Assembly: GCA_964652775.1 (NCBI GenBank)
Contig: CAZZAM010000001.1
Coordinates: forward strand, 128,023 to 192,022
Direction of reading: 5' to 3'
DNA length: 64,000 nt
From: an uncultured candidatus Brocadiaceae bacterium
GTDB lineage: Bacteria > Planctomycetota > UBA11346
The notes beneath the pieces are model-generated. The model ran no database searches and was not told where the DNA came from. It saw only the letters and a list, made by a program, of their open reading frames with translations. Of this stretch, positions 9,511 through 36,306 are shown piece after piece. Position 1 is the first letter of the stretch. The number at the start of each line of letters is the position of its first letter. The position numbers and the translations under genes were made by a program.

Positions 9511-9571
9511 GACTCTTTCGCGGCCGACTGGTTAATTAACCAACGCTCATCAGTCCGGCCTCCCCCATGAT

Positions 9572-9583
9572 GATGAATTCACT
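9572..9583. promoter_or_regulatory. Weaker copy of the TGAATTCA palindrome (GATGAATTCACT)
   Basis: It lies in the divergent intergenic region between 8545..9510(-) and 9757..11358(+), 62 nt from the ATG at 9510. Confidence 0.35.
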
Positions 9584-9756
9584 TCCGGCAGTCCGAGTTG
9601 CCCTACTCAGATCCGCGCACCGCTCTAGAGTCACGATGAAGCCACACCGATGATCACATCAATAATCTTCACTCCAGCCTCACCGTTCTCGTTGCCAGCA
9701 AAACGTTCTCTCCCATCACGAGAGGTTGGCGTCAGTCACTGGCGTCTCCACACCCC

Positions 9757-11358: not shown

Positions 11359-11361
11359 CCC

Positions 11362-12012: not shown

Positions 12013-12127
12013 AACGAATGGCGTCACTGCGCACCCGCCAGTGGAGTCCGTGGTCAACGCCACATCGTTACATGCCCGCGCAGTTTGTTCCATGCAATCG
12101 TCAACGATCATACACGGGAGATGCCTC

Positions 12128-15076
12128 ATGCCCATCCGCTTCCTACTCTGCTGTTTGTGCATCGGCCTGCTCGCTGGCAGCGAACCGGTCTACCTCGATC
12201 TCTCTGGTGTCGCTAACGTAGCACGCGAGGACGACGGTATTCCGAACAACGGTCAGGGTGGATGGACGGACGATGGCATCAACGACATGTTCACAAGTCC
12301 GTCGCTGCCACCAGGCACGCAGACAGTCAACGGAGTGCGTTTCCGCACGCTGAACCCCGTTGCCACCGGCGGCTCATCCGTGGTGATGCTCCGAGGCGCA
12401 ACCAGACCTACGCTGCCGCAGTCGGTGACGGTGTCAGCACATGGAGCAACGGGACGTTTTATTTACTTCGTTCACCATGGCGCGGCCCGTCCCAAGGGGA
12501 TAGCGCCAGCGGAGGTCGTCGCCACCTACACTGTCACCTATGCCGACGGTTCATCGGTGGCTATTCCGATCCGCGATGGTCGCGAGCTACGACACTGGTG
12601 GACAGGATCCTGGTGGGACAACAACGGCGCTGAAGCCTGGCCCGTGCTGATGGCGCAAAATGCTTACACCGCAAAGTGGCATCAATGGATTGGTCTATGG
12701 GCCACCTGTTGGACCAACCCCGAACCCGGCAAGGCGATCACCTCCATTACCCTCGCCTCGGCAGGCAGCGTGGCGCCGGCGATCTGGGCAATCACTATCG
12801 ACGATCAGAATTACCGCGAGACGGTCGGGGAAAAATACCAACTCGCAAAACCAGCAGAGGTACCGCCGGGCGCTTTCGACAGCCGCCTTGCCCTCGAACG
12901 CCACCTGATCAGACAAGAGATGCGCGCATCCGGCATGATCGTCGGCATGCGCTCGCTTGAACTGATTCGCCCCGATTTACTGGCCGTGACCATCGATGCA
13001 GCGGTGAGCGATGGCCCAGGCCTGGACGAAACGGCGGCAAAAACGCTACAGAATCCATCACGATTCAGTGTAGTCACCGCCGATACGTCACTGCAACCGC
13101 AGCATCCTGCTCAAGTGGGCCGCCAGTCCTATCTCTTCACCACCGCCGACATCGGACGCTTTCCGGTGAATCCGATTTTCTGGCATGTCTATTATCTGCG
13201 TTTGGCCGAGCCGCTGCGTTCGGGATCCCAGATTTCAGTGCGGGTCTCCGACCTCGCATCTGGACTCGTCTCTGCGCTGCCGCTCACGTTCCAACCTCAG
13301 ACCATGATTACGCCAACGTTAAAGGTCAACCAAGCCGCCTACTGCGCCGCTGCTAGTCGTCGTTACGCCTATCTTGGGTGGTGGGCCGGTGATCTCGGCG
13401 CGGTTGACTTCTCGAGTTTCAATCGCTTTGCCGTGATCGATGAAAAAAATGGAACTGAAGTGCTCGCTGGGGCCATCACCCCACGACCAGCCACCACCGA
13501 CAGCAAACTCACTCCTGCGGCGGATGGCAGCGATCCGCTCAGTGGCGAGCGCGTGTTCCAGATCGACCTGTCACCGCTGAAGCCCGGCCGTTACCACCTG
13601 CTGGTGCCGGGTCTGGGACGCTCGTGGAGTTTCGGCGTCGGCGGCGATGACGCCTGGCAACTCGCGCGAACCACGCTCCGTGGTCTGCTGACCCAGCGCT
13701 GCGGTTGCGATCTGCCCGCTTCCGCCACGTCCTATCCGCGACCTGCGTGCCACGTCAATGTCTATCAGCACGGACGTCTGGTTGGCGGCGTCAACGAACG
13801 CAGGACTGATGGCAAACTGGTCGTTGCTAATGCAGCGCTGTCCGCCGACGAACCAATCCGCTCGTTTCACGGTGGTTATCACGACGCTGGCGACTTCGAT
13901 TTGTTCTCCGGACACCTCGTCGCCACTGCTCGCATGTTGAATTCTTTTGAAGTACAGCCCAACGCGTGGCGCGATGGCGATCTGAATCTACCTGAAAGCG
14001 GCAATGGTATTCCCGATCTGCTCGACGAGGCAGCCTGGGGTCTCGCGTTCTATGCCGACAACCAAGCCGAAGATGGCAGTGTTCCAGCCGGTCGAGGGAA
14101 CGACGAGGACTACCAGAACAAAGAATGGATCAAGGACGGCGGCAAGGAACACGGCGCGATTCCCCGCTTCGGCGTGTTCCCGCCGACCCGCGCAGCGACC
14201 GCCACATTCGCCGCCGTGGCCGCGCAATTCGCGCGACTGGTCGCCCCCTTCGACGCGACCAAGGCCGCCATGTATCGCGAACGCGCCGAACGCGCCTGGA
14301 CCTGGGCGACGAAGGACGGCGGTGGGGATTACCGCAACAAGGGGCTCAGTTACGCACGCTACCTCTTGCCACGCTGTCTGGCCTGGGCCGCCACCGAACT
14401 GTGGGAAACGACCAGCAAGCCGGAATACCATGCATTCGTCATGACCAAACGCGCCGACCCGGAGACATGGGCAACCACTTGGCAGGACGTTGGCGAACTG
14501 GGCTACTTCCAGTGGCCGTTCGCGCGCGCAACGCAGGCAGGAACCGACGTCGGTTATCAACAGGAACTCCGCGCCGCTATCATCAAACAGGCGGATGGTC
14601 TCGTCGCATTGCTCGATCGGCCGTCATACCGCATGAGCTCGCGCACTGATGGTGCGGGCGGTTGGGGTAACCTGGTTGGCGGAGGCAATCGTGGTGGACT
14701 GTGCCTCTATGCATGGTTCCTGACTCGCGACGTGAAGTATCTTGATGCCGCATCGCTCAACGCCGACTACCAACTTGGATGCAATCCGCTCGGCCGCAGC
14801 TTCATCACCGGGGTCGGCAGTCGGCCACCTATCCATCCCGAGTTACGTCCGTGGCTCTATGACAAGAACGACCTGCCTGCACCAGGTGTTCCCGTCTATG
14901 GTCCAGGCGGTGGACCGAAATCGTTGCGCGGTTCCTATCCCGAGGCCGTCCCCACCTGGCGCTGCTGGCTCGACAATCCGGTTTCAGAGCTGCATAGCGA
15001 ATTCGACTTGGTGCGCATGGGTACCGAGGCGGGATTCCACGCGCTCCTGTGGATCGCCGGCAAGGACGTTCGCTAG
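12128..15076 (+). CDS. Glycoside hydrolase family 9 protein with N-terminal accessory and Ig-like (CelD_N-type) domains
   Basis: ORF 11822..15076. I place the start at the ATG at 12128, which gives the signal peptide MPIRFLLCCLCIGLLAGS. 'LKVNQAAYCAAASRRYAYLGWW' fits the Ig-like domain. 'FHGGYHDAGDFD' fits the GH9 DAGD catalytic motif. 'NPLGRSFITGVGSRPP' is present near the C-terminus. Confidence 0.85.
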   Translation: MPIRFLLCCLCIGLLAGSEPVYLDLSGVANVAREDDGIPNNGQGGWTDDGINDMFTSPSLPPGTQTVNGVRFRTLNPVATGGSSVVMLRGATRPTLPQSVTVSAHGATGRFIYFVHHGAARPKGIAPAEVVATYTVTYADGSSVAIPIRDGRELRHWWTGSWWDNNGAEAWPVLMAQNAYTAKWHQWIGLWATCWTNPEPGKAITSITLASAGSVAPAIWAITIDDQNYRETVGEKYQLAKPAEVPPGAFDSRLALERHLIRQEMRASGMIVGMRSLELIRPDLLAVTIDAAVSDGPGLDETAAKTLQNPSRFSVVTADTSLQPQHPAQVGRQSYLFTTADIGRFPVNPIFWHVYYLRLAEPLRSGSQISVRVSDLASGLVSALPLTFQPQTMITPTLKVNQAAYCAAASRRYAYLGWWAGDLGAVDFSSFNRFAVIDEKNGTEVLAGAITPRPATTDSKLTPAADGSDPLSGERVFQIDLSPLKPGRYHLLVPGLGRSWSFGVGGDDAWQLARTTLRGLLTQRCGCDLPASATSYPRPACHVNVYQHGRLVGGVNERRTDGKLVVANAALSADEPIRSFHGGYHDAGDFDLFSGHLVATARMLNSFEVQPNAWRDGDLNLPESGNGIPDLLDEAAWGLAFYADNQAEDGSVPAGRGNDEDYQNKEWIKDGGKEHGAIPRFGVFPPTRAATATFAAVAAQFARLVAPFDATKAAMYRERAERAWTWATKDGGGDYRNKGLSYARYLLPRCLAWAATELWETTSKPEYHAFVMTKRADPETWATTWQDVGELGYFQWPFARATQAGTDVGYQQELRAAIIKQADGLVALLDRPSYRMSSRTDGAGGWGNLVGGGNRGGLCLYAWFLTRDVKYLDAASLNADYQLGCNPLGRSFITGVGSRPPIHPELRPWLYDKNDLPAPGVPVYGPGGGPKSLRGSYPEAVPTWRCWLDNPVSELHSEFDLVRMGTEAGFHALLWIAGKDVR

Positions 15077-15409: not shown

Positions 15410-18400
15410 TCAGGCCTCGAAGGCAAGGTACATGCCGCTCCAAGGCTGAAGCTCCAAGGACAAACGGTGCCAGCCGTTCATCAATCGCTTGGTCGGAATG
15501 CGTCGGCCGGTTGCCAAATCGATTGCTGATCGTGCCGACATTGCCAAGCGCACGCGCACATCTGCTTTCATACGCGTTCGCAAGTGACTGAAGAGCAGGA
15601 AATATTCCTTACTGCCCTTACGAATCAATTCCTTCCAGGCAAAAAGATCATCGGTCTGATAGTCTTTGCCACGGATACCCAAATGCCGACAGAGACGCAT
15701 CAGGGTGTGGTTCGTCATGCGTTCATGACTCTCAAAGTCACGGAACTCGTCGATCGCATCGTCGGCATTGATATCGTAACCAGCGAGAAGCACGGCGCCT
15801 TTCCCAAGTGGTCGGCGAATCAGTACGGGCTTGCCACGGGTATCGGTAAGCAACGGCTCGCCGTCGCCAATGACCTCACTGGCGTTACCGCGCATGGTTC
15901 CCCCACCAAAGCTGGCAGGGAATTTGATCGTACGCTTGGTCCGATCTCCATAGCGCACATCTTCCAATCCGAGCACTTGCCTGAGGAACGTTCGCTGCAC
16001 GCGGCCCGCACCGAGGATCTCGCAGGTCTTGGGGAAGACGAGGAGGTTAAGTCCTTTCTCGATCGACTCACGCAACAGCCAATACCATGGCTCGTCCGAC
16101 GGTAGGGATTGAGATCCTTCGCGGCCGAAGAAATCATTGTCGGGCAGGGTCATCAGCTTGTAGCAGGAAAAATCGTAGCGGTGTTTGTCGCAGATCAGAT
16201 CAACCGGAAAATCCAGGCAGGTAGCGATGTTGGCCAGTGAGCGGCTCTTCCAGGCCATGCGATCGAACACCGCCAACTCAGGAGCCGCACGAACCGCGCC
16301 CATCAATTCCCGACGGATGAATCCCATGCGGGCAATATCTTCGCCATAGACTCCGAGATCGGGTCCGGGGATCGTGTTGTAGGACGCGTTAAGGCGAACC
16401 GATTGAAACAAGGCGTCGTCATACTGCCGGTACATCGCACCCACCTGCCATGCCTCACCACCCCAGCGAACTGAGTGCAGCGGGGCGCTATGCGCATACA
16501 CAGCCGTGGGATCGAATTTGCGTTCTTCGATCCAATGTTTTGCCTTGGCCTCAAGAAAGTACGTGGACACATCGGCAATGGAGCCTGCGCCATGGCCCGG
16601 CGGATCCGATGGCAACTTCGACGGCGCAAATTGACGGACGATGTTGTTGACGTGTCTGACACCAACATCAATTGACCACATGCGGAACTGCACATACACG
16701 CCAAAGGCGTCTTTCTCTTCGGAGTAAGGCACCGGCACATCGTTGAAACTCTGGAAATCCCGCGCAAATAGCCTGCCGACCGTAGCAAGTGACCAGCCCA
16801 ACTCGTCGCGGAGGTAGGCTGCAAAGGCCGTACGCTCGTGCGGAGAATAATCGAAAATCTTGTTGTCGCCCCCGTAATAGTAGTAGCCGTAGGGGAAGTC
16901 GGAGTTGCCGAAGTCATAAATAAAATTGAGCACGCGTGGATGCTCAGCATAGCGCTTGGTCATCGCTTCCAACATGCCGAAGTAGTGCGTGCGATAGAAC
17001 GGACTCCAAATACTTGGGAAGAAACCCGGCTTGCCGTGCCGGTCAATGGCTGGTTCCTTCAAGCTCCACCACGGCACGCCGCCATCGCCCAGGCCCGAAC
17101 CACGCGTGGTCGGGAACATCCATAACTGCAGTTGCAACTTTTCCTCTTCGGCCATCGCTAAAATCTCGTCGGGAATACGCCAGTCGTAAGTTCCAGGCTG
17201 GGGCTCGACATCTTCCCATGGAATGTTGACGCGGGCGTACTGGCAACCACGTGCGCGCATCTCGCGGCAAAAAAACCTGAACTCCTCCGTGATTTTCGGC
17301 TCCTGGAAAGACCAGTAGGTAGAAAACCCATAGCCGATATCGCTGGAGGCTGGCGCGGACAACGTACGCAAGGTGGTGGTCGCCAAGGTCCGAGTTTTGT
17401 TGCCATCACCGACCACGACATCGAGGCGCGAGACACCGAAGCGACGTGGTATGCGCAGCATCGATAGTCGGCGGCTTGCGCCTGCATTGACCGCAAATGA
17501 CCGCCAAACGCCGATCTCGCGGCCATCAGCAAGCACACGCACATCCATTGCCGTTCGCTCATGACCAAGATTGCGAATGGTCACCACCGGTAATTCAGCG
17601 TCGCCTTCAACAACCAACGGCCGCGCCTCAATTCCGGCCGCCAATTCCACCGGCTGGAGCCAAGCAAGCAAACTGAGAACCATGGGCCCAATGCCCTTCC
17701 ACTCTCGAGTAAGCAATCCGGGGTCACGGGTCCACGGCAGTTGGTAAGCACCATCAACATTCTCGCGCGGTTCGCCGCCGATGAATCCGATCACCGCCAA
17801 GCGCGCGCCAAGGAACTTCTTGCAACGTCGTTCCACCACCGTGACCGCAGAAGAACTGTCGGCGTGGCTATTACTTTCGATGCGGAGCAAGGGATGGGCT
17901 TCGTCGGGGGGAAATGCGGTGATGCGTAGCGCGGGAAAGTTTTTCCCGGTAAAGAAAGCGTGATCCTCAAGACGTCCAAGAATCTTCCGTCCGGTTTCGG
18001 TTAGGCCATCACCCGTGATGCGGCAGTCGTCATAGCAACGGGTCAGATGAAACCGCGAGGCGTGCATATTCCGCAGCGGAAACCATTTTCCATGATGTGG
18101 GAGATCACCCAGGAAAAATAACGAACCGCCAGCTGCATGAAAGGCGATCAAGCCCGCGAGCGCCTCCTCAGTAAAATCACCGCGGATATAGGGTATAACG
18201 AGGATGTCCGTATTGGAACGAGTGATCGTCCGCAGTTCCGCATGCCCGAGCAGGCGGAATGGCATGCGCCGGGATGCCAGCAGGGTGGCGATATCCTCGG
18301 CTCCGTACTCCGGCATCGCCTGGAATGCAGCGTCTTTGAAGACAGCTATTTTACCTACTGACCTCATGGGGGGAATCCTGTGTTGTTTTATGTCCGCACC

Positions 18401-18415
18401 GTGAATCAGTTTCAT
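15410..18415 (-). CDS. Large glycoside-hydrolase-like protein (GH42-type TIM barrel flanked by glutamine-amidotransferase-like domains)
   Basis: 1001-aa ORF. 'GCQYARVNIPWEDVEPQPGTYDWRIPDEILAMAEEEKLQLQLWMFPT' resembles the GH42/beta-galactosidase barrel. N- and C-terminal 'ILVIPY...AGGSLFFLGD' / 'GAVLLAGYD' segments resemble the GH42 trimerisation-type fold. Confidence 0.6.
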   Translation of the reverse strand: MKLIHGADIKQHRIPPMRSVGKIAVFKDAAFQAMPEYGAEDIATLLASRRMPFRLLGHAELRTITRSNTDILVIPYIRGDFTEEALAGLIAFHAAGGSLFFLGDLPHHGKWFPLRNMHASRFHLTRCYDDCRITGDGLTETGRKILGRLEDHAFFTGKNFPALRITAFPPDEAHPLLRIESNSHADSSSAVTVVERRCKKFLGARLAVIGFIGGEPRENVDGAYQLPWTRDPGLLTREWKGIGPMVLSLLAWLQPVELAAGIEARPLVVEGDAELPVVTIRNLGHERTAMDVRVLADGREIGVWRSFAVNAGASRRLSMLRIPRRFGVSRLDVVVGDGNKTRTLATTTLRTLSAPASSDIGYGFSTYWSFQEPKITEEFRFFCREMRARGCQYARVNIPWEDVEPQPGTYDWRIPDEILAMAEEEKLQLQLWMFPTTRGSGLGDGGVPWWSLKEPAIDRHGKPGFFPSIWSPFYRTHYFGMLEAMTKRYAEHPRVLNFIYDFGNSDFPYGYYYYGGDNKIFDYSPHERTAFAAYLRDELGWSLATVGRLFARDFQSFNDVPVPYSEEKDAFGVYVQFRMWSIDVGVRHVNNIVRQFAPSKLPSDPPGHGAGSIADVSTYFLEAKAKHWIEERKFDPTAVYAHSAPLHSVRWGGEAWQVGAMYRQYDDALFQSVRLNASYNTIPGPDLGVYGEDIARMGFIRRELMGAVRAAPELAVFDRMAWKSRSLANIATCLDFPVDLICDKHRYDFSCYKLMTLPDNDFFGREGSQSLPSDEPWYWLLRESIEKGLNLLVFPKTCEILGAGRVQRTFLRQVLGLEDVRYGDRTKRTIKFPASFGGGTMRGNASEVIGDGEPLLTDTRGKPVLIRRPLGKGAVLLAGYDINADDAIDEFRDFESHERMTNHTLMRLCRHLGIRGKDYQTDDLFAWKELIRKGSKEYFLLFSHLRTRMKADVRVRLAMSARSAIDLATGRRIPTKRLMNGWHRLSLELQPWSGMYLAFEA

Positions 18416-18470
18416 GCTGCAAAACTACCTGTTCCTGCCCACCTATTCAAACCATGGCCAAGCGGTTCAT

Positions 18471-18482
18471 GCTGAATTCAGC
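18471..18482. promoter_or_regulatory. Perfect palindrome GCTGAATTCAGC (candidate operator)
   Basis: It lies 56 nt upstream of the ATG at 18415. The same core recurs at 20173, 20256 and 23485. Confidence 0.5.
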
Positions 18483-18499
18483 AGCAGCCTACCAGCTGC

Positions 18500-20107
18500 T
18501 CACGCCGCCGTCGCAGCCGGCCGCGTAGTGGATGATGAGTCGCTCGTGGCAACCACGGCAACGGCGAGCATGATACGCTGGATGCACAGCGCGAGATCGC
18601 AGAGAACCGAATTGGCCTCATGCGGCATGCCCGCCAGTCGACGATGCGGATCCCCGTCGCGCAGATCCTCAACCATACGGACAGCCGCAGCAGTCTCGGC
18701 GTACAGCCGTTCCGTTAAACAACTATCGCGGGTAGCGAATACCGTCTCGGCGAGAATGAGAATACCTTCACCGGCAACAAACAACTCCGTAACCGACCGT
18801 TGTCCATCAGGTCCTAATTCATCCTTTCTCGCAATGGCCTCGGCAACCGTTTCGGCCAGTCGGCTCTCCACGACATCACCTGCAGATTCGAGAGCCGCCA
18901 CGTAACGCAGTTGCCGTAAGCATTCACTGCGGACTTCCTCGCTGGATCCGGCACTGCGACTCGCCAGATAATCACGAATGGCAGCATCAAGTGAGTCGAT
19001 GAGGTCGTCGGCCGCCACCGTCGCCCTGGCCGAGGCGCGATCTCCACTCTTCCAAGCAGCCTGGAGCTGCACCAGCATCGTGCGAACAGCCTCGGCCACG
19101 CGCAGTATTTCGCGGTATGATCCGGCCAGGGCCATGCGCGCATCGCCAGTGTCAGCAAATCGCGTGAGATAGCGCGGCGTGAGGCCACGATCGCCAGCCT
19201 CGCCAGACCATGGGCCGAGTCGTTTGATCAGCCAACCTCCACCCAGCATGCCGAATACAGCCGTCGCCAAATTAAATTGCAGATGCAACAGGGCCGCCGC
19301 CCATGACACATCCTCCGCCCATAAGGGTAGGACACCAGCGATGCTCACGGCAACCACAGCGAGCACCAATTTGATCACTGCATTGGCCATAGTGGGAAGG
19401 CGACTCGCCGGATGCCCCCAACCAATGATGAGGGCATTCATGGCAATTCCGGCGTTAGCTCCGGCCACCGTCGGCAGCACTGCTCCAACCGCCACCGCTG
19501 GCCCAGCTCCGGCGGCGATGCCAACCAGTAGAAGAATCGTGGCGGTACTTGACTGCAGTACCATCGTGAGAGCCCCGGCTGCAATCGCGAGCATCACCGG
19601 ATGGTTTGCTGCTACGCCCATCAACGTCCGCATCTCATCGTTGCGCAATCCGGCCGCGTGCTGGGTGATAATATGGAGGCCAAGAAAGACGAAGGCGAGT
19701 GACAGCAGGAGTTGGCCAACACCACGGATGCTCTCGTGCTGGGTGAATTGAAATAGTATCACGCCGACAATGATCAAGGCCGGCCAAGACCCGCCGATGC
19801 CTCCAGCGCCAGCGAGCACCAAAACCGTAATTCCAACGTTGGCACCCAACAGAATGCCAAGGATTCCGCGCGCGGTACCACCCGATTGACGCGCTAGCCG
19901 AGTTGCCACCGCCGCGGCACCAGAGGAAGACGGCGCAAGGCAGGCGAATCCAAATCCAAACATGAATCCACTGCCAGAATCACGCGCAAGACGGGGCAAC
20001 CAGCGTCCGCCATGCTCCTCAAGCAGTCGATCCACTCCCTTACGGAGAAAACGCAATGCGAATAGAATGATGCAAACACCAGCGACGAGTCCGATGAACG
20101 TGGCCAT
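18500..20107 (-). CDS. Na/Pi cotransporter family protein with a PhoU-like C-terminal domain
   Basis: 535-aa ORF. 'LFALRFLRKGVDRL', 'CLAPSSSGAAAV' and 'LGANVGITV' match the duplicated Na_Pi_cotrans motifs (QSSSA.T / GANIGTT). The C-terminal half is helical and PhoU-like. Confidence 0.75.
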   Translation of the reverse strand: MATFIGLVAGVCIILFALRFLRKGVDRLLEEHGGRWLPRLARDSGSGFMFGFGFACLAPSSSGAAAVATRLARQSGGTARGILGILLGANVGITVLVLAGAGGIGGSWPALIIVGVILFQFTQHESIRGVGQLLLSLAFVFLGLHIITQHAAGLRNDEMRTLMGVAANHPVMLAIAAGALTMVLQSSTATILLLVGIAAGAGPAVAVGAVLPTVAGANAGIAMNALIIGWGHPASRLPTMANAVIKLVLAVVAVSIAGVLPLWAEDVSWAAALLHLQFNLATAVFGMLGGGWLIKRLGPWSGEAGDRGLTPRYLTRFADTGDARMALAGSYREILRVAEAVRTMLVQLQAAWKSGDRASARATVAADDLIDSLDAAIRDYLASRSAGSSEEVRSECLRQLRYVAALESAGDVVESRLAETVAEAIARKDELGPDGQRSVTELFVAGEGILILAETVFATRDSCLTERLYAETAAAVRMVEDLRDGDPHRRLAGMPHEANSVLCDLALCIQRIMLAVAVVATSDSSSTTRPAATAA

Positions 20108-20172
20108 GCTGTCTCCTCTTGAGTTTCTACCAAGCCTTTGCGCCAGTCTGCACGGTTAGGTCTAGGATGCTT

Positions 20173-20184
20173 GCTGAATTCACT
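20173..20184. promoter_or_regulatory. GCTGAATTCACT (candidate operator half of a pair)
   Basis: It lies 66 nt upstream of the ATG at 20107. It pairs with the site at 20256-20267, 83 bp away, in the same divergent promoter region. Confidence 0.45.
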
Positions 20185-20255
20185 GATCTGCACATGTCAG
20201 TATGAGTTGCCTTCGCCAAGGAGCGCGACCATCGCTGTCCAGGACAAGGCGGAGC

Positions 20256-20267
20256 GGTGAATTCAGC
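20256..20267. promoter_or_regulatory. GGTGAATTCAGC (candidate operator half of a pair)
   Basis: It lies 95 nt upstream of the ATG at 20362 (SSF transporter). Its 11-mer GTGAATTCAGC is the exact reverse complement of GCTGAATTCAC within the 20173-20184 site. Confidence 0.45.
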
Positions 20268-20361
20268 AGTTCCGAATTGGTCTTCCACCTGTTAGCTTTC
20301 CACCCCGCTACGGTGATCTTGCCGCGGCGCCACATGGCCAACTCCCGCTGCCGGAGATCTG

Positions 20362-22404
20362 ATGAATCTGCATCCACTCGATATCGCAGTCATCGCCATT
20401 CCCCTGCTGGCGGTGTTCACCATCTCGATGGTGATGCGCCGCTATCTGCGCAGCGTTGCCGACTACCTGGCGGCCAGCCGCTCGTGCGGACGCTACCTGA
20501 TCTGCACCGCGGCAAGCGAAACTGGCGTCGGCGTCATCATCCTGGTCATGACGCTTGAGGTGTTCTCCAAGGTCGGCTTCAGCCTGAATCTCTGGCAGAG
20601 CTTCGTCGGTCTCATGTTCGTGATGCTCGCACTCTTCGCCTTCGTCACTTTCCGCTTCCGCGAAACGCGCGTTCTCACCTTTCACCAATTCTTCGAGGTC
20701 CGCTATTCGAAAGGACTGCGCGTATTTGCCACCACGCTCAACGTGTTCTCAGGTCTGTTCAATTTCGGTATCGTTCCCGGGGTCGGCGCCCGCTTCTTCG
20801 TCTACTATCTGAACCTGCCCGAGAACCTAATGATGTTTGGTGCCTCGATCCCCACCTTCTGGCCGGTAATGATCATTTTCATGGCAATCACCGTGTATTT
20901 CACCCTGTCTGGAGGAAACCTCTCGGTGATGATGACCGACTGTCTCGAGGGCGTCATCTCTGGCGTGTTCTATTTGGTCATCGCGTTCACCTTGTTCTTC
21001 TCGCTCACCTACGACCAAATGGGCGGCGCCCTGATGTCAGGTGAACCCGGCAAGTCCTATATCAACCCCTTTGACATATCGGGGCATCAGGATTTCAACG
21101 GTTTCTACATCATCATCGGCGTGGCGATGAGCCTCTATATCTATCGTGGCAACGCCTGGGACAGCGGCATGGCGGCCTCGGCGCGCAACGCCCACGAGGG
21201 GCGCATGGCCAGCATTCTCAGCATATGGCGCAGCCAGGCGCATGTCGCGATGCTGACCTTGGTTGCAGCGGGCGCATTCACCGTCCTCCATCACGCCGAC
21301 TTCACCAGCCAAGCGGAAGCCGTGAAGAATAGCATGACTAACCTGCCGCCACAACTCGCCACCCAGCAGACCATGTCGGCTGCTCTTGGCGTCTTGCTTC
21401 CTGCCGGAGTTAAAGGCGCGTTCTGCGCTGTGCTGCTGATGGGTCTCTTTGCCGGACAAAGTGCCGCTCTACACAGCTTCGGCACGGCCATCGTCCAGGA
21501 TATCGTCGTACCGAACCGCAAGAAGGCGTTCCAGCCCAAAGCCCAGATCCGCCTGCTACGCTGGTCGACCATTGGCGTCGCGGTGTTCGCACTCCTCTGG
21601 AGCATGTTCTATAAGCCAGCAGATTATCTGGTGATGGTGACGGCGGTAATTGGAGCTATCTACCTAGCCGGTGTCGGCGCGGTGGTGCTCGGCGGTCTCT
21701 ATTGGAAGCGCGCCACGACTGCTGGAGCCTGGGCCTCGCTGGGCGCTGGCGCCGTGTTGGCCATTACCGCGTATATCTTGCAACATTACTGGACCTCGTT
21801 GCAACCATTCCTGCTCAGCCTGACCGAAACCGGCAGCACCATCAACGCCTGGCTCAGCGCACACGCCGCTAAGTTTCCCGTCAACGGCCAGATCATGTCA
21901 CTCGTCATCTATGGCATATGCGGGACACTATTCGTCACCGTCTCGCTATGGACCTGCAAGGTGCCGTACGACATGGACCGCATGTTGCACCGCGGCAAAT
22001 ACCGTATTGATGAGGGCTTGGCGCCGGCTGAACCCAAAAAGCGTTGGAGCTTCCTGCGTCTCATCGGCGTCGATGAGAACTATACGAAAAAGGACAAGAT
22101 CCTCGTCTGCGCTACGTTTGGATGGACCCTGACCTGGAACCTCATCGCCTTTGGACTCGTCATGTGGAACATCTTCGTCAATCGCTGGACTGATCTCGAC
22201 TGGTGGCATTGGAAATACGTGGTTGGTATCATTCTGCCTCTCATCGTTGGCACAGTGACGACCATCTGGTTTACCATTGGTGCAGTGATCGACATGCGCG
22301 ACTTGTTCCGTCGTCTGCGCACAGTGAATCCTAACGATCAGGATGACGGTCGCGTCGTCGGCCACCAGAACCAAGGTGAGATTGACCTGGTGAAAAAGGA
22401 CTAA
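20362..22404 (+). CDS. Sodium:solute symporter (SSF) family transporter
   Basis: 680-aa polytopic ORF with an SSF-like N-terminus (MNLHPLDIAVIAIPLLAVFTISMVMRRYLRSVADYLAASRSCGRYL) and at least 13 hydrophobic segments. Confidence 0.85.
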   Translation: MNLHPLDIAVIAIPLLAVFTISMVMRRYLRSVADYLAASRSCGRYLICTAASETGVGVIILVMTLEVFSKVGFSLNLWQSFVGLMFVMLALFAFVTFRFRETRVLTFHQFFEVRYSKGLRVFATTLNVFSGLFNFGIVPGVGARFFVYYLNLPENLMMFGASIPTFWPVMIIFMAITVYFTLSGGNLSVMMTDCLEGVISGVFYLVIAFTLFFSLTYDQMGGALMSGEPGKSYINPFDISGHQDFNGFYIIIGVAMSLYIYRGNAWDSGMAASARNAHEGRMASILSIWRSQAHVAMLTLVAAGAFTVLHHADFTSQAEAVKNSMTNLPPQLATQQTMSAALGVLLPAGVKGAFCAVLLMGLFAGQSAALHSFGTAIVQDIVVPNRKKAFQPKAQIRLLRWSTIGVAVFALLWSMFYKPADYLVMVTAVIGAIYLAGVGAVVLGGLYWKRATTAGAWASLGAGAVLAITAYILQHYWTSLQPFLLSLTETGSTINAWLSAHAAKFPVNGQIMSLVIYGICGTLFVTVSLWTCKVPYDMDRMLHRGKYRIDEGLAPAEPKKRWSFLRLIGVDENYTKKDKILVCATFGWTLTWNLIAFGLVMWNIFVNRWTDLDWWHWKYVVGIILPLIVGTVTTIWFTIGAVIDMRDLFRRLRTVNPNDQDDGRVVGHQNQGEIDLVKKD

Positions 22405-22406
22405 AT

Positions 22407-23453
22407 GTGCTCTCGGGCACCATCATGCCATGCGCTGTCACTACCATCGTTGCCAACGGACGACGACGACTGCTTGAAGAAGCAGACAACGCCAGCACGG
22501 CTTTCAACTGGGGGGCCACAACATTAGCAAACGCGTTGTTACAGGCACACGACCAACTGCACGACGAAAACTACCTGTCGGTGCTGAAATGCTGGGCTCA
22601 GCGATCAATTACGGTTGGGGGAACCCCGCAGGATCCCGGAGGTAGTCTGTGGAAGATGGGTGCCGGATCGATCTTTGCTGCCTTGGCCCATTGCGAATCA
22701 GGCAGCAACGCAGCGTGGAATCTGCATTTGCGTTGTTGGCTGGATCACCTGGATGAGATTCCTCGCCTGCGCAACGGAACGTGGTCAAGCAAGTGGGATG
22801 CCCAGCAGATCTGGGTTGATTCTCTGATGACCCTGTGCCCGACATTATTGGCGGCAGCCGAATGCCTGAATCGCCCGCACTATTTGCAGCAAGCGGTCGA
22901 TACCTGTCTACTTTCTGCTGCAGTCCTCCAGGATAAACAAACTGGCCTGTGGTGGCATGCCTGGGATCAAGATACGCAGAAAACGCTCGGCACCTGGTGG
23001 TGCCGCGGCAATGCCTGGGCGCTTATGGCGATGGTCCAGGTCGCTGCTGTCGCCCCAGTACACTTGCGTGGCGTGGCGGAACTTCGACACCGGCTACAGC
23101 ATCTCGTTGCTGGGCTGTTATTGTTTCAACGCGGAGATGGTTCCTGGGGAACCGTACTCGACGATGCCGAAGCAACGATGGAAACATCTGGCCAAGCATT
23201 AATCGCAGCTTGGCTGGAACGCTATCGTCAGACCGGCTTGGTTGCTGATACGGATCGGATCGCCAGCGCCGCTGTACGCGGTTGGCAGGCGGTGTTACCA
23301 CATCTCGATGCGCACGGCACCTTGTCCGGAGTGAGCCTGGGCACCGGAGTCGGATCTGCTGCGGTATATCGATCGATCCCAACCACCGCCTGGCCGCTCT
23401 GGGGAAGCGCCGCTGCCGTGCATGGCGCACTCGCATTCGCAGATCCTCAATGA
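22407..23453 (+). CDS. Glycoside hydrolase family 88/105 (unsaturated uronyl hydrolase-like)
   Basis: 348-aa ORF starting 3 nt after the SSF gene. It has the 'WWCRGNAWALMAM' (W.RGNGW) motif and 'VDSLMT', consistent with an (alpha/alpha)6-barrel pattern. Confidence 0.75.
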   Translation: MLSGTIMPCAVTTIVANGRRRLLEEADNASTAFNWGATTLANALLQAHDQLHDENYLSVLKCWAQRSITVGGTPQDPGGSLWKMGAGSIFAALAHCESGSNAAWNLHLRCWLDHLDEIPRLRNGTWSSKWDAQQIWVDSLMTLCPTLLAAAECLNRPHYLQQAVDTCLLSAAVLQDKQTGLWWHAWDQDTQKTLGTWWCRGNAWALMAMVQVAAVAPVHLRGVAELRHRLQHLVAGLLLFQRGDGSWGTVLDDAEATMETSGQALIAAWLERYRQTGLVADTDRIASAAVRGWQAVLPHLDAHGTLSGVSLGTGVGSAAVYRSIPTTAWPLWGSAAAVHGALAFADPQ

Positions 23454-23484
23454 TTGATGCTCCGACTGGCTGTCTGCGTTGGTT

Positions 23485-23496
23485 GGTGAATTCAGC
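23485..23496. promoter_or_regulatory. GGTGAATTCAGC (candidate operator)
   Basis: It lies 32 nt after the GH88 stop and 68 nt upstream of the ATG at 23564. Confidence 0.45.
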
Positions 23497-23563
23497 TAGG
23501 AGTGTCCACGTAACCTTGCGTACATCAGGCCCGATCCGACCATCACATCTCATTGGAGAACCC

Positions 23564-25042
23564 ATGCTGGCCGACCACATCGACAATCTCCGCAATCAAA
23601 CTGCACATAATCAATGGTCTAGGCTGGTTCTCCTGCCCGGCCTCATGCTCTTCGCCCTCGTGCACACCGCCCACGCGGAAGACCGAGTGCTGAGTGTCAT
23701 CATCGATGCCGCGACTGCTCAGCCCGGCGAGCGGGGACCGGCCATCGATCCCTGGTTCTGGAACAAAGAGCAACACGAGAAGGCACTCCAACATTCCCAG
23801 TTGTCCTTCACGGATGTGGATGGCACCCGCTGCATGCGTATTGCCGTTAGCAAAGACCTTCCCTGGACGCGTGATCAATACGACATCACCGCAACCAACG
23901 GCCCAGACTACCTGGATCCGACATGCGACGCCATTCGCCTACGCTGCCGAGTAGTTGACGGCACTTTCCGTCTTACGCTGGGTGGCCCAACCAGTTACTT
24001 CGCCAACAGCGACGTCCTCACTGCCCCAGTCACGCTGACTCCGACCACCGAGTGGCGTGATGTCGTCATACCGCTCGACTGTGATCTCAGCCGCAATTTT
24101 CGCCGAGCAGGATTAGGAGCTAAAAACCCCATCGTTTCCTATACCCGTTGGATTCAAGAAGGGATGCGTGCGTATCTCCACTCCGGGAGTCAGGGCGTAC
24201 TCCTGATTCAGCGCATGGAACTCCTTGCCCAGGGTCGCGGCCAACCCTATCCGGTTCCCCCTGCCGGTGGCTTAACTGCGGTTGGTCCAGTGATCGCGCC
24301 CGTCGCCACAGATTTATTTTCCGCCTTCATTCAGCGGGATCTCGCTCTCACCGAACAACCGAAGATACCCAATCGCACCTGGAAACCAGCGACCGCATCC
24401 ATCGACGCTGCTAGCGGTCGTCCTGCGTGGTCGATCCGGATGCAGGGAACCGAAGAGGTGTCGTTCGCCGGTTGCCGCCTGACGGTCCCAGCCGCTGCCC
24501 AGGCTCTCACGATGGACATCAGCGCCGGTCAAATCCCGCGCGATCCCCTCAGTATAGATATCCTCTTCCTCGTGGCTGACGGAGAAGTTCCGTGGGAAAC
24601 TCTGGCCGCTCCACCGGCGTGGAAAGTCATCCCAGAGACGGCATTTAGTGTGTTCTTTACCGGCAAAACGACCGACTCCGTATCGCTCGCGCTCTACCAT
24701 GTCCGCCGCGCTGTGCCGGCAAAAACTACGGCCACCGTACTCATCCCGTGGGAAGACGCAGTCTGCATCTGGGGCGCAGGCACCTGCGCTGAGAGCTTTC
24801 TGCAACAGCGCAAACTCCAGCCCGAACGCATCCGTGCCCTGCTGGTCACGCCTTCGTACCGCCACTGCAGGACCGAAAGCCAGTTTACCATCGCCGCCAT
24901 CCAGTCGGTTGCACTACCCGCGGACTGGAAGCACCTCCGATCGTTCTTCCAACCAGCGCTCTCAGACCTGACCAGCGTACACGATCCCAAGGATGGTGGC
25001 TACGGTGGTCGATTGAATCAGCGCCAAAAGGTCAACCCATGA
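23564..25042 (+). CDS. Hypothetical secreted protein (two beta-sandwich/CBM-like halves)
   Basis: ORF 23282..25042. I place the start at the ATG at 23564, which gives a signal peptide (WSRLVLLPGLMLFALVHTAHA). The stop overlaps the start of the next gene (ATGA at 25039). Confidence 0.6.
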   Translation: MLADHIDNLRNQTAHNQWSRLVLLPGLMLFALVHTAHAEDRVLSVIIDAATAQPGERGPAIDPWFWNKEQHEKALQHSQLSFTDVDGTRCMRIAVSKDLPWTRDQYDITATNGPDYLDPTCDAIRLRCRVVDGTFRLTLGGPTSYFANSDVLTAPVTLTPTTEWRDVVIPLDCDLSRNFRRAGLGAKNPIVSYTRWIQEGMRAYLHSGSQGVLLIQRMELLAQGRGQPYPVPPAGGLTAVGPVIAPVATDLFSAFIQRDLALTEQPKIPNRTWKPATASIDAASGRPAWSIRMQGTEEVSFAGCRLTVPAAAQALTMDISAGQIPRDPLSIDILFLVADGEVPWETLAAPPAWKVIPETAFSVFFTGKTTDSVSLALYHVRRAVPAKTTATVLIPWEDAVCIWGAGTCAESFLQQRKLQPERIRALLVTPSYRHCRTESQFTIAAIQSVALPADWKHLRSFFQPALSDLTSVHDPKDGGYGGRLNQRQKVNP

Positions 25043-27603
25043 AGAATCCCCTCCTCTTGGTGGCGCTTACCGGCATCGTGTCGGTGTCTGCCGCCGACCT
25101 CAATCTCGGCCCTGCTGACGCGCCGTTCCGACTCGACTTCTCGTTGCCCCGTTATGACGGCGTCACCGAGCGGGTGTTCAGCGATCTCCAGGTTATCCAT
25201 CAGCGCATGGTCATCATTGGCAACGATTACACCCAAGAGGCACGGAAGGCGGCTTACGAGTCCAAGAAAACCGAGCTTGATGCGATCATGGCGGAAAAGA
25301 CCGAGCCATGGTCGCAAAAAAAGAAATACGACGCCGTGTTCGAGTCGGCGTTCCGCGAAGTCTATACCCAATATCAGCAACTCGATCAGGTGAACTTCTT
25401 CACCATCACTAGCAGCGATGATCCAACGTATGCTGCGGGCCTGCTGCCCGAGAAGGTAACCCGCTGGTGCATGCCGCGTGGCAACTACCGCGCCTTCGAG
25501 AAAACCCGCGGTCGCGAAACGACCTCGGGCGTCAACCTTGCCAACTTTTCGTATCTGACCCTGAAGGCACCACTCAAGACGGGTTGCACCTACACCATCA
25601 CGCAGGGTGACAAACGCCGAGTTACCTTCCTCTTCGACGAGAACCACACAATCAGCCGCGCACTCAAGGTGAACCAAAGCGGATACAGTCCACTAGCCAA
25701 ACGCAAATATGCGTACCTCGGCGCTTGGCAGGCAGGGTTCGGTGCCGTGTCGTTCGCCGACTGGGACAAGAAACCATTCGAGGTGATTGATGCCGATACC
25801 CGCAAAGTGGTTCACACCGGAACCATCGAGCTCCTTGCCAAAGATCCCAAAACCTGGATCGGCAGGACTGAGAGCTCCGCCGCCGGCGAAGACCTCTACC
25901 AACTCGATCTCTCGACCATGACCGCTCAAGGAGATTTCTACATCCGCGTCGCCGGTATTGGTCGTAGTTGGCCATTCACTCATAGTCCTGATGGCCCAGG
26001 TAAAGCGTTCTATCTCCATCTCCGTGGGCTATTTCACAACCGCAGCGGTCACGCCTTGGATGCCGCTTACACCGGTTGGCCGCGTCCGCTTGCCCACACA
26101 ACGGCATATGTCGGAGATTTCGCCCCGGAATCACCGGGCGCCAAATTTCCCGTCAATGCATTCATGGCCATCGTCAACTGGGCCAAGACCCACCCCGACG
26201 TCGAATGGGGCCCAGCGGGCAAAGGCGGTATCGGCGGTTGGTACGATGCCGCTGACTATGACAAACGGCGATCGCATTATGAAACCGTCTACGATTTGTT
26301 GATCGCCTACGAACTTGCGCCAAAAAAATTCACTGACGGCCAAGAAAACACCTACGAATCGACCAACGGCATCCCCGACATACTCGATGAGGTGGCGTGG
26401 GGACTGCTGGTGTGGCGCAACTCACAAGACAAAGCCGGTGGCATCAGCGGCCATCTTGAGGCTCGTAGACATCCAAATCCGGCCGGAGAAAAACCTGACG
26501 GCCGTCCGCACAATGATCCGGAACATTACTACTTCAGCGCCCGTGGCCGAGAAAGTTCCCTCACCTACGCCGGTGCCGCCGCCCACCTCGCACGATTACT
26601 GAAACCATTTAAGCCGGACGTCGCGCAAGAATGGCTAGATTCAGCGAAGCGCGCCTGGGTATTTGGCAGCGATCCGGCCAATCAGTATAAACGCGACGAC
26701 TACGCTGGCAGCGGCAAGCCGTACGCCGAGGACGATACGTACATCGCCGTTGCCTGGTGCCTGTCTGGACTCGAACTGTACATGGCAACCAAAGAGCAGC
26801 CGTATCTTGATAAGGCGATCGCACTCTTCCCGCAGATGAAGCCGAAATTGCAATGGCCGATCACCTATGCTCATCATAGCTGGTGGTGGGCGTTCTACGA
26901 TGATCCCGCCCTGCCAACTGCAATTCGTGCTGCCGAGCGCGCCGAATGGTGCAAAAAAGCCGATGCTATGGAACGTTTCACGCAGGATCCGTTCTATCGT
27001 AACCCGATCGATCCTCGTCGGGCGTGGCCCACATCCTGGGGCGTGGCAACCGGCACCAACGATGCCCGAACCCTCGTCATGGCCTGGGGTCTGACCCGCG
27101 AACAAAAGTATTTCGATGCCATCGCACTGACCGCGGACTGGCTGCAAGGCTGTAATCCCTTGGGTACCTCGTGGACCTCGGGCATCGGCTACACCTACCC
27201 ATGGTGTTTCTTCTCTGGCGAAAGCGAAGAAGACGGCATCGTCGATCCGGTTCCGGGATTCACGGTCTACGGCGTCATCGGCGGCATGCCGGTCGGCCCG
27301 CGTGTACGCGGATTCAACCTTGCTGAACGGACCAGAGAGGGTTGGACGATGAAGAAACGACTGCTGCCTGAGCACGTCACGCTTGATAAGGATTTAAAAC
27401 CAGCGTTGCCCTACTGGCGCGTGTGGTTCATGGATTACCACGATGCACCTGACATGCAGGAATACACCGTCAACGAGACAGTCTCGCCAAGCATTCTGAC
27501 GTATGCCGTCCTGTTGTCCGACGGTTGGATGCCCAGCGCACGACTCAAGTCGCTCAAGCCACGTGACGAACGCTTTGTCTTCGGCCAATGGCCAACTCCG
27601 TGA
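25039..27603 (+). CDS. Glycoside hydrolase family 9 protein (second paralogue)
   Basis: It has the signal peptide MKNPLLLVALTGIVSVSA. 'LKVNQSGYSPLAKRKYAYLGAWQ' fits the Ig-like domain. 'GGWYDAADYDKR' fits the DAGD-type motif. 'NPLGTSWTSGIGYTYP' and 'YTVNETV' are also present. Confidence 0.85.
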   Translation: MKNPLLLVALTGIVSVSAADLNLGPADAPFRLDFSLPRYDGVTERVFSDLQVIHQRMVIIGNDYTQEARKAAYESKKTELDAIMAEKTEPWSQKKKYDAVFESAFREVYTQYQQLDQVNFFTITSSDDPTYAAGLLPEKVTRWCMPRGNYRAFEKTRGRETTSGVNLANFSYLTLKAPLKTGCTYTITQGDKRRVTFLFDENHTISRALKVNQSGYSPLAKRKYAYLGAWQAGFGAVSFADWDKKPFEVIDADTRKVVHTGTIELLAKDPKTWIGRTESSAAGEDLYQLDLSTMTAQGDFYIRVAGIGRSWPFTHSPDGPGKAFYLHLRGLFHNRSGHALDAAYTGWPRPLAHTTAYVGDFAPESPGAKFPVNAFMAIVNWAKTHPDVEWGPAGKGGIGGWYDAADYDKRRSHYETVYDLLIAYELAPKKFTDGQENTYESTNGIPDILDEVAWGLLVWRNSQDKAGGISGHLEARRHPNPAGEKPDGRPHNDPEHYYFSARGRESSLTYAGAAAHLARLLKPFKPDVAQEWLDSAKRAWVFGSDPANQYKRDDYAGSGKPYAEDDTYIAVAWCLSGLELYMATKEQPYLDKAIALFPQMKPKLQWPITYAHHSWWWAFYDDPALPTAIRAAERAEWCKKADAMERFTQDPFYRNPIDPRRAWPTSWGVATGTNDARTLVMAWGLTREQKYFDAIALTADWLQGCNPLGTSWTSGIGYTYPWCFFSGESEEDGIVDPVPGFTVYGVIGGMPVGPRVRGFNLAERTREGWTMKKRLLPEHVTLDKDLKPALPYWRVWFMDYHDAPDMQEYTVNETVSPSILTYAVLLSDGWMPSARLKSLKPRDERFVFGQWPTP

Positions 27604-29075: not shown

Positions 29076-29087
29076 CCAAGGAACCCT

Positions 29088-36296: not shown

Positions 36297-36306
36297 ATCA
36301 TGGAAC

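What the first reader, a model, noticed from the sequence alone, without database searches (positions are those of the whole stretch)
18471..23496. Shared palindrome G[C/G]TGAATTCA[G/C][C/T] in the promoter regions of the glycan-utilisation genes
Seen: my manual scan found the 8-mer TGAATTCA six times in the window. Five copies lie in the small non-coding fraction. These are 18471-18482 (GCTGAATTCAGC, perfect), 20173-20184, 20256-20267, 23485-23496 and, more weakly, 9572-9583. The sixth (32417-32424, flanks CT/TC) is inside a gene. A rough base-composition estimate gives fewer than one expected copy per 64 kb.

The intergenic copies sit 56-95 nt upstream of start codons. The genes concerned are the GH42-like gene, the Na/Pi-type transporter, the SSF-GH88 operon, the hypothetical/GH9/CocE/esterase operon, and the secreted protein next to the LacI gene. 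Two copies lie 83 bp apart in one divergent region.

Inference: this is the operator of a local regulon. The adjacent LacI-family regulator (7385..8401) is a candidate, although LacI operators usually have a central CG, so another regulator is possible.
Basis: partly seen in the sequence, partly recalled or inferred. Interest (0 to 1): 0.6.

Follow-up and report, generated by a model that had tools for sequence, protein, structure and literature searches.

The report
Repressor binding sites in glycan locus
The repeated TGAATTCA palindrome is real and is very probably the binding site of the neighbouring LacI-family sugar regulator, which would switch about fifteen glycan-degrading and transport genes on and off together; this is an ordinary kind of bacterial switch, with an unusual A/T-rich centre, in a little-studied phylum.

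Summary
Observation confirmed. TGAATTCA occurs 6 times in the window against about 1 expected. Five copies are intergenic, 57-99 nt upstream of starts of glycan-utilisation transcription units. The sixth, at 32418 and not 32417, is an intragenic copy with poor flanks and looks like chance.

The full element is a 14-bp even palindrome, tGsTGAATTCAsCa. Site 1 (18470-18483) is a perfect TGCTGAATTCAGCA.

The decisive evidence is comparative. The adjacent LacI-family protein (7385-8401, minus strand) has only four close orthologue clusters (57-66% identity) among 5.8 billion proteins. The three whose DNA could be fetched lie in 68-73% GC contigs with the same gene set. Each carries 3-4 copies of TGAATTCA against 0.02-0.07 expected. 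All copies are intergenic, 41-105 nt upstream of orthologous operons, and one lies in the regulator's own divergent promoter in all three.

Twenty-three control loci with SSF homologues but no such regulator show only background counts. Genome-wide the word is not enriched, so this is a local regulon.

The missing central CG is a known minority state in the family. The protein's hinge region is basic and non-canonical, which may explain the AATT centre (inferred).

Verdict: a new member of a known kind, of moderate interest. The scan has noted LacI operators in other Planctomycetota before.

The parts
18470..18483 (.). Operator site 1: TGCTGAATTCAGCA, a perfect 14-bp palindrome. It lies 57 nt upstream of the GH42-like gene and 16 nt past the stop of the NaPi gene.
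   Evidence: highest flank score in the genome
20172..20185 (.). Operator site 2: TGCTGAATTCACTG, 67 nt upstream of the NaPi/PhoU transporter gene on the minus strand.
20255..20268 (.). Operator site 3: CGGTGAATTCAGCA, 96 nt upstream of the SSF-GH88 operon on the plus strand and 83 bp from site 2.
23484..23497 (.). Operator site 4: TGGTGAATTCAGCT, 69 nt upstream of ATG 23564. The orthologous operon in L031 has its site at the same 69-nt spacing.
9571..9584 (.). Operator site 5 (weaker right half): TGATGAATTCACTT, in the divergent region between 8545-9510 (minus strand) and 9757-11358 (plus strand).
9529..9542 (.). Variant perfect palindrome TGGTTAATTAACCA, whose centre is 43 bp from that of site 5. 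It may be a second, degenerate operator in the same promoter region (status uncertain).
7385..8401 (-). Divergent LacI-family regulator (P0007, 338 aa), the proposed protein that binds the palindrome.
   Evidence: Pfam; PDB matches; orthologues; model
8545..9510 (-). Secreted hypothetical protein, weakly DUF4380-like, upstream of the LacI gene on the same strand. It is possibly co-transcribed with the LacI gene, which would make the regulator autoregulated through site 5.
   Evidence: co-transcription is inferred
9757..15076 (+). Putative regulated unit: 533-aa hypothetical protein, histidine phosphatase (His_Phos_1) and GH9. Orthologues of the 533-aa gene carry the site 55-57 nt upstream in L033 and L035.
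15410..18415 (-). Regulated gene: GH42-like glycosidase.
   Evidence: site 1 lies upstream
18500..20107 (-). Regulated gene: Na/Pi-cotransporter-type protein with a PhoU domain. A NaPi gene also sits in the orthologous locus of P0004.
20362..23453 (+). Regulated operon: SSF sodium:solute symporter plus GH88.
   Evidence: site 3 lies upstream
23564..29867 (+). Regulated operon: 492-aa secreted hypothetical protein, GH9, S15/CocE-type hydrolase and esterase. The same order, hypothetical-S15-GH9, is found beside the LacI orthologue in L031.

Best explanation
The palindrome tGsTGAATTCAsCa is the operator of the LacI-family regulator encoded at 7385-8401. A dimer of this protein binds one 14-bp site, or two, in each of five or six promoter regions. 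Together these cover about 15 genes: two GH9, a GH42-like gene, GH88, an S15/CocE hydrolase, an esterase, a histidine phosphatase, SSF and NaPi-type transporters, three hypothetical proteins, and probably the regulator's own gene.

By analogy with the family, binding blocks transcription until a sugar produced by the pathway binds the C-terminal periplasmic-binding-protein-like domain and releases the protein.

Shown here: the sites, their placement, their palindromic symmetry, their co-occurrence with the regulator across genomes, and the family membership of the protein. Inferred: physical binding, repression as opposed to activation, and the identity of the inducer. Also inferred is that the helix-turn-helix reads the outer tGsTG while the basic linker (VGLRKLRRRV) reads the narrow minor groove of the central AATT, in place of the family's usual leucine lever in a CpG step.
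For: (1) Clustering. The window holds 6 copies against 1.05 expected. Four of the genome's 20 STGAATTCAS fall within 5 kb. The three best-flanked copies in the genome are all here.

(2) Symmetry. Over 16 sites from four genomes, position +/-6 is G/C in 29 of 32 half-sites and +/-5 is S in 26 of 32. This is the pattern expected of a dimeric protein.

(3) Co-occurrence with the regulator. The contigs carrying orthologues P0003, P0005 and P0006 (57-66% identity) hold 4, 3 and 4 copies at 68-73% GC, with Poisson P of 1e-6, 7e-7 and 1e-6.

(4) Placement. All those copies are intergenic, and nearly all lie 41-105 nt from a start codon. PMC4052901 reports that more than 75% of LacI-family sites lie 30-140 nt upstream.

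(5) Autoregulation. A site lies in the divergent promoter of the LacI orthologue in L031, L033 and L034-36. The same survey finds autoregulation in 72% of family members.

(6) Orthologous promoters keep the site. The 492/481-aa gene (63% identity) has it 69 nt upstream in both the window and L031, while the flanking DNA has diverged. The 533-aa gene (59% identity) has it in L033 and L035.

(7) Negative control. Twenty-three loci (233 kb) with SSF homologues but no P0007 homologue hold 5 copies, none of them upstream of the SSF gene.

(8) Phyletic pattern. In 401 genomes of the phylum, the regulator clade is found only in G000 and five genomes of one family. Three of those five, plus G000 and its congener G001, are the only genomes with the 492-aa target family.

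(9) No other regulator. The LacI gene is the only DNA-binding gene in or beside the cluster.

(10) Family membership. The protein matches RbsR and CcpA structures over its full length (E = 3e-9) and folds confidently (pLDDT 85).

(11) Promoter architecture. In L033 two sites flank a TATAAT hexamer, which fits repression.
Against: - There is no binding or expression data.
- The operator lacks the central CG found in about 90% of family motifs.
- The LacI gene in the window has no site in the 143-nt gap directly upstream of it, so autoregulation here depends on co-transcription with 8545-9510.
- The orthologous loci were found through the regulator, so its presence in them is by construction. 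Only the motif's recurrence there is independent evidence.
- The four genomes are related, and at least one is congeneric, so they are not fully independent.
- The more distant orthologues (about 40% identity, family f57) lack TGAATTCA.
- No sigma-70-like promoter was detected near the sites, so the position relative to the promoter, and hence the sign of regulation, is unknown.
- The exact-8-mer search exaggerates how conserved the core appears.
Confidence: 0.8

Rival explanations
1. The palindrome is the operator of a different, unidentified transcription factor encoded elsewhere in the genome, and the LacI-family gene is only a neighbour.
For: The centre is AATT and not CG. The window's LacI gene has no site immediately upstream. 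An unchecked note on another genome (e1-3873178) reports a TGAATTCA palindrome with no regulator next to it.
Against: The motif follows the LacI orthologues into three other contig sets and sits in their own promoters. No other DNA-binding gene is conserved across those loci. Control loci without the regulator lack the motif.
Confidence: 0.1
2. The element is a promoter element, for example the -35 box of an ECF sigma factor such as the lyase-fused sigma at 44393-47329 or the one at 58272-60434, and not a repressor site.
For: The spacing to start codons is fairly constant at 55-75 nt. In the window, three sites read GTGAATTCAGC(A/T) in the direction of the downstream gene. ECF sigma genes are present in the window. 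TGAAT resembles some ECF -35 boxes (from memory).
Against: No shared -10-like element lies at a fixed distance downstream. The motif is symmetric on both flanks across 16 sites, and the orientation bias disappears in the orthologous loci, where L033 has GGTGAATTCACC throughout. Single sites serve divergent gene pairs. The orthologous contigs show no ECF gene next to the sites.
Confidence: 0.05
3. The copies are chance occurrences or a small non-regulatory repeat, such as a mobile-element scar, an RNA hairpin or a restriction-site effect.
For: Genome-wide the word is not over-represented (76 copies against 74.3 expected). GAATTC is the EcoRI site. One copy is intragenic.
Against: The clustering statistics hold in four genomes. 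There is no similarity beyond 14 bp between copies. GAATTC is not avoided (1104 copies against 1165 expected). No Rfam family matches. As RNA the 12-mer could form at most a 4-bp stem.
Confidence: 0.03

Closest known systems
Local LacI/GalR-family sugar repressors and their operators, as catalogued by comparative genomics (Ravcheev et al. 2014, PMC4052901; RegPrecise)
   Same: The domain architecture is the same: an N-terminal HTH followed by a periplasmic-binding-protein-like sensor. The operator is an even palindrome. Sites lie 30-140 nt upstream of starts. The regulator gene is clustered with carbohydrate-utilisation targets, and orthologues are autoregulated from a divergent promoter.
   Different: The operator centre is AATT, whereas 1173 of the 1303 surveyed motifs have a central CG. 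The protein scores just at the Pfam LacI-HTH threshold, and its match stops before the hinge (residues 4-39, profile positions 3-38 of 46). The hinge sequence is VG[LV]RKL[RH][RK]R[VI] where RbsR has YAPSALARSL and CcpA has YRPNAVARGL. The phylum is not covered by that survey (0 mentions).
Cra/FruR operator of Enterobacteria (consensus about GCTGAAAC|GTTTCAGC, recalled from memory)
   Same: It shares the outer half-site letters GCTGAA / TTCAGC, which are identical to site 1 here.
   Different: Cra has four more central base pairs, including the CG. Here the two half-sites abut directly. The proteins are not close relatives; the best PDB matches are RbsR and CcpA at E of about 1e-9. The resemblance is a lead and was not tested.
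The canonical LacI paralogue in the same genome (G000 contig C2, about 136687-137700)
   Same: It belongs to the same family, is also next to a glycoside hydrolase, and also has palindromes upstream of its own gene.
   Different: Its hinge is canonical (FRPSSLAHRL). Its 14-bp palindromes, TGCCACCGGTGGCA and TGCTACCGGTGGCA, have the central CG and occur nowhere else in the genome. This gives a within-genome contrast in which hinge type tracks operator centre, but it is a single comparison.
LacI operator regulons noted earlier by this scan in other Planctomycetota (e1-918303, e1-1170609)
   Same: A LacI-family gene is flanked by 14-bp palindromes that tie glycan genes, and in orthologous loci a DUF1559 pilin-like gene, into one unit.
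   Different: Those operators have the canonical CG centre (for example TGGGAACGTTCCCA). They come from different genomes and different regulators. No look-alike of P0007 was seen in the scan.

Membership tests
LacI/GalR family transcription factor (the protein at 7385-8401) | N-terminal LacI-type helix-turn-helix | tested here: met
   PF00356 scores 27.8 bits against a cut-off of 27, over residues 4-39. A whole-genome scan gives 31 bits. The AF2 model has helices at 3-10, 14-21 and 29-42. The match is marginal and covers only profile positions 3-38 of 46.
LacI/GalR family transcription factor (the protein at 7385-8401) | C-terminal periplasmic-binding-protein-like (type I) effector domain | tested here: met
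   PF13377 scores 34.8 bits and PF00532 25.6 bits. The protein aligns over its full length with RbsR 9ny7 (E = 3.4e-9) and with CcpA. pLDDT exceeds 85 over residues 100-338.
LacI/GalR family transcription factor (the protein at 7385-8401) | Hinge helix with the conserved Y-x-P-[NS]-x-x-A-x-x-L signature (the leucine lever that inserts into the central CpG) | tested here: not met
   The aligned segment is VGLRKLRRRVDQ, and the clade consensus is VG[LV]RKL[RH][RK]R[VI]. The Pfam match ends before it. AF2 gives pLDDT below 50 and no helix for residues 46-58. Whether a helix forms on DNA cannot be told from these data.
LacI-family operator | Even palindrome of constant spacing bound by a dimer | tested here: met
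   The motif is a 14-bp even palindrome, and the flanks at +/-5 and +/-6 are conserved symmetrically over 16 sites. Perfect examples are TGCTGAATTCAGCA in the window and TGGTGAATTCACCA in L033.
LacI-family operator | Central CG pair | tested here: not met
   The centre is A|T, within AATT, in all 16 sites. The survey lists 49 of 1303 family motifs with a different central pair, so this feature is typical of the family but not obligatory.
LacI-family operator | Location 30-140 nt upstream of start codons of target genes, clustered with the regulator gene | tested here: met
   The gaps are 57, 67, 96, 69 and 63-99 nt in the window, and 41-105 nt for 12 of the 14 site-gene pairs in the orthologous loci.
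LacI-family operator | Autoregulation of the regulator gene | tested here: inconclusive
   This is met in L031, L033 and L034-36, where the site lies 41-75 nt upstream of the LacI orthologue. In the window the nearest sites are upstream of the preceding gene 8545-9510, and the 143-nt gap before the LacI gene has none.
LacI-family operator | Physical binding by the regulator, relieved by a small-molecule effector | not testable with these tools
   This needs EMSA, DAP-seq or reporter assays.

The most novel reading that the evidence does not exclude
This small clade of LacI-family proteins has only five 90%-identity clusters among 5.8 billion proteins. It may have replaced the family's hinge helix and leucine lever with a flexible arginine/lysine-rich linker. 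That linker would read the intrinsically narrow minor groove of an AATT centre, which would be a distinct way for a LacI-family protein to recognise the middle of its operator. Hinge type would then co-vary with operator centre. The canonical paralogue in the same genome pairs a canonical hinge with a CG centre. The sister clade at about 40% identity has palindromes such as GATGAA-G-TTCATC next to its genes, with the same TGAA half-site at a different spacing.
Probability: 0.3. Interest if true: 0.55.

Novelty: new member of a known kind. Interest (0 to 1): 0.35.

Why it matters
The result gives a concrete, testable regulon in a phylum with almost no characterised transcription factors. It ties three conserved proteins of unknown function to the same sugar-responsive switch as two GH9, GH88 and GH42-like enzymes: the 492-aa secreted protein, the 533-aa protein and a histidine phosphatase. 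A NaPi-type transporter belongs to the same set. That narrows the search for their substrate.

The operator itself is a clean natural case of a LacI-family site without the central CpG, paired with a non-canonical hinge. This could be informative for how the family reads the middle of its operators, and for designing orthogonal repressor-operator pairs.

It is not surprising in kind. Local LacI regulons are common, and the scan has already seen several in Planctomycetota.

Tried and rejected
- Footprinting through the SSF transporter failed. Homologues in relatives and metagenomes (35-58% identity) sit in other gene contexts and carry no motif, so they were too distant. They were reused later as negative controls.
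- The regulator was not found in its own taxonomic family (48 genomes, E <= 1e-20) or in a pattern scan of genome contigs.
- Genome-wide enrichment is absent. The 8-mer count equals its max-order Markov expectation. The 14-mer with up to 3 mismatches lies only at the high end of shuffled-palindrome controls. The idea of a global regulon was rejected.
- A shared -10 or ECF-type promoter downstream of the motif was looked for by eye and with the sigma-70 scan. Nothing consistent was found.
- Other readings were checked and dropped: an RNA element (Rfam, no match) and restriction-site avoidance (GAATTC is not depleted).
- The possibility that the canonical LacI paralogue on contig C2 binds the C2:134628 copy was rejected, because that paralogue has its own CG-centred palindromes.
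- The more distant orthologues (family f57 and P0009) do not carry TGAATTCA, so they could not extend the footprint.
- DNA for the contig of P0004 was unavailable.
- The literature search for the 8-mer returned only primer sequences. No paper on planctomycete LacI operators was found.
Full report
**Observation.** The window is G000:C1:128023-192022 of a 4.18-Mb, 59% GC assembly. TGAATTCA occurs at 9574, 18473, 20175, 20258, 23487 and 32418. Dinucleotide shuffles give 1.05 +/- 1.10, and none of 100 shuffles reaches six. Only the sixth coordinate is off by one.

After correcting the start of the fourth downstream gene to ATG 23564, the gaps to the start codons are 57, 67, 96 and 69 nt. For the fifth copy the gap is 63-99 nt. 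The 32418 copy lies inside a large ORF with non-matching flanks. It is the one chance copy that the composition predicts.

**Genes.** Pfam assigns the downstream genes as follows:
- a GH42-like glycosidase (15410-18415, minus strand);
- a NaPi-cotransporter/PhoU protein (18500-20107, minus strand);
- SSF symporter plus GH88 (20362-23453);
- an operon of a secreted 492-aa hypothetical protein, GH9, an S15/CocE-type hydrolase and an esterase (23564-29867);
- a 533-aa hypothetical protein, His_Phos_1 and GH9 (9757-15076).

The only DNA-binding gene in or beside this block is the LacI-family gene at 7385-8401. An AraC gene and two ECF-type sigma genes lie 20-35 kb away.

**Shape of the element.** Site 1 is a perfect 14-bp palindrome, TGCTGAATTCAGCA. 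I pooled 16 sites from four genomes and counted both orientations. Position +/-6 is G/C in 29 of 32 half-sites, +/-5 is G or C in 26 of 32, and +/-7 is T/A in 16 of 32. Nothing is conserved beyond that.

The motif is therefore tGsTGAATTCAsCa, which is symmetric as expected for a dimer. In the window three sites read GTGAATTCAGC towards the downstream gene. That orientation bias disappears in the related loci, so I do not read it as a directional promoter element.

A variant perfect palindrome, TGGTTAATTAACCA, lies at 9529-9542. Its centre is 43 bp from that of site 5.

**Genome-wide picture.** The genome holds 76 copies, which equals the max-order Markov expectation of 74.3. GAATTC is not avoided. 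Four of the 20 STGAATTCAS lie in this 5-kb stretch, and the three best-flanked copies in the genome are sites 1, 3 and 4.

The next best intergenic copies are these:
- C34:13298, upstream of hemE;
- C2:134628, between an ADH-like gene and an MGH1/GH63-like gene;
- the one-mismatch TGCTGAATGCAGCA at C14:8182, 118 nt upstream of a GH2 gene.

This is a local regulon with at most a few outlying members, not a global one.

**Link to the regulator.** Footprinting through the SSF gene failed because its homologues are too distant and sit in other contexts. The regulator itself was informative. It has no orthologue in 48 genomes of its own family. Among 5.8 billion protein clusters it has only four relatives at 57-66% identity.

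Their contigs carry the same genes: GH9, the S15 hydrolase, the 481-aa and 531-533-aa hypothetical proteins, His_Phos_1, a NaPi transporter and a DUF1559-type pilin-like gene. In the three contig sets with DNA, at 68-73% GC, TGAATTCA occurs as follows:

| Locus | Copies | Expected | Poisson P |
|---|---|---|---|
| L031 | 4 | 0.070 | 1e-6 |
| L033 | 4 | 0.072 | 1e-6 |
| L035 | 3 | 0.016 | 7e-7 |

Every copy is intergenic. In each locus one copy lies in the divergent promoter between the LacI orthologue and a target operon, 41-75 nt from the LacI start. The others lie 55-105 nt upstream of GH9, the 533-aa gene, the pilin-like gene and others.

The 492/481-aa orthologues (63% identity) have the site exactly 69 nt upstream in both genomes, while the surrounding DNA has diverged. 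The 533-aa orthologues (59% identity) carry it at 55-57 nt in L033 and L035.

As a control, 23 loci (233 kb) with SSF homologues have no P0007 homologue and only five copies, none of them upstream of the SSF gene.

In a sample of 401 genomes of the phylum, the regulator clade appears only in G000 and five genomes of one other family. The 492-aa target family appears only in G000, a congener and three of those same genomes.

**Protein.** P0007 aligns over its full length with RbsR and CcpA structures (E = 3e-9 to 2e-8). Its AF2 model has pLDDT 85. It is a divergent member, though. The LacI-HTH Pfam match is at threshold and ends before the hinge.

Where RbsR has YAPSALARSL and CcpA has YRPNAVARGL, this clade has VG[LV]RKL[RH][RK]R[VI]. 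The model leaves residues 46-58 unstructured.

A canonical LacI paralogue on contig C2 of the same genome has the usual hinge (FRPSSLAHRL). It also has two unique CG-centred palindromes, TGCCACCGGTGGCA and TGCTACCGGTGGCA, upstream of its own gene.

The sister clade at about 40% identity lacks TGAATTCA. It shows AT-rich upstream regions with GATGAAGTTCATC-like palindromes or GTGAATCCA, which have the same TGAA half-site at a different spacing.

**Mechanism.** The 14-bp length matches the family's core operator. I infer that the recognition helices read the outer tGsTG and that the basic linker contacts the AATT centre. Repression is the likeliest sign of regulation because it is the family norm. 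It also fits L033, where two sites bracket a TATAAT hexamer. Both the sign and the inducer therefore remain inferred.

**Comparison with what is known.** The survey of 1303 LacI-family regulons (PMC4052901) reports even palindromes in 1251, a central CG in 1173, a different central pair in 49, more than 75% of sites 30-140 nt upstream, and autoregulation in 72%. The present case fits on every count except the central pair, where it joins a known minority.

That survey does not cover Planctomycetota. I found no paper on LacI operators in the phylum. Earlier notes of this scan describe CG-centred LacI operators in other planctomycete genomes.

**Verdict.** It is a new member of a known kind. A modest chance remains that the hinge/centre pairing represents a distinct recognition mode.

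Noticed in passing
window 9529-9542: A perfect 14-bp palindrome, TGGTTAATTAACCA, differs from the operator consensus only at the +/-3 pair (G/C changed to T/A). Its centre is 43 bp from that of site 5, in the same intergenic region. It may be a weaker second operator or unrelated.
   Followed up: partly
G000 contig C2:136499-136512 and 136655-136668: Two CG-centred palindromes, TGCCACCGGTGGCA and TGCTACCGGTGGCA, are unique in the genome. They lie upstream of a canonical LacI paralogue next to an MGH1/GH63-like hydrolase, and are probably that paralogue's own operators.
   Followed up: partly
G000 contig C14:8182-8195: TGCTGAATGCAGCA has one mismatch to site 1. It lies 118 nt upstream of a 1169-aa GH2 protein with an F5/8 type C domain, which may be an outlying member of the regulon.
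   Followed up: partly
L033 6300-6370: Two operator copies 32 bp apart bracket a TATAAT hexamer upstream of the 533-aa orthologue. This is the only place where a recognisable -10 box sits beside the sites.
   Followed up: no
L047 5860-5900; L038 upstream of its LacI orthologue: Sister-clade regulators at about 40% identity have AT-rich upstream regions containing GATGAAGTTCATC or GATGAAGTTAATCA. The TGAA half-site is the same, but with one extra central base.
   Followed up: partly
L033 6461-7255; L034 5560-6315: In the orthologous loci a DUF1559-type (N_methyl / SBP_bac_10) pilin-like gene carries the operator 69-105 nt upstream. This echoes earlier scan notes that LacI regulators control such genes in Planctomycetota. 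In the window no such gene lies directly under a site, although a large pseudopilin cassette adjoins the locus at 31287-40211.
   Followed up: no
window 18484-18502: An imperfect inverted repeat (AGCAGC / GCTGCT, 8-nt spacer) lies between the NaPi stop codon and site 1. No T-run follows it, so it is not a typical intrinsic terminator.
   Followed up: no
G000 C61:8623 and C20:63004: Two intergenic copies share the longer string TGCTGAATTCATAGG. One lies 73 nt upstream of a 994-aa serine/threonine kinase-like gene and the other near a contig end. They may be a small repeat, not operators.
   Followed up: no
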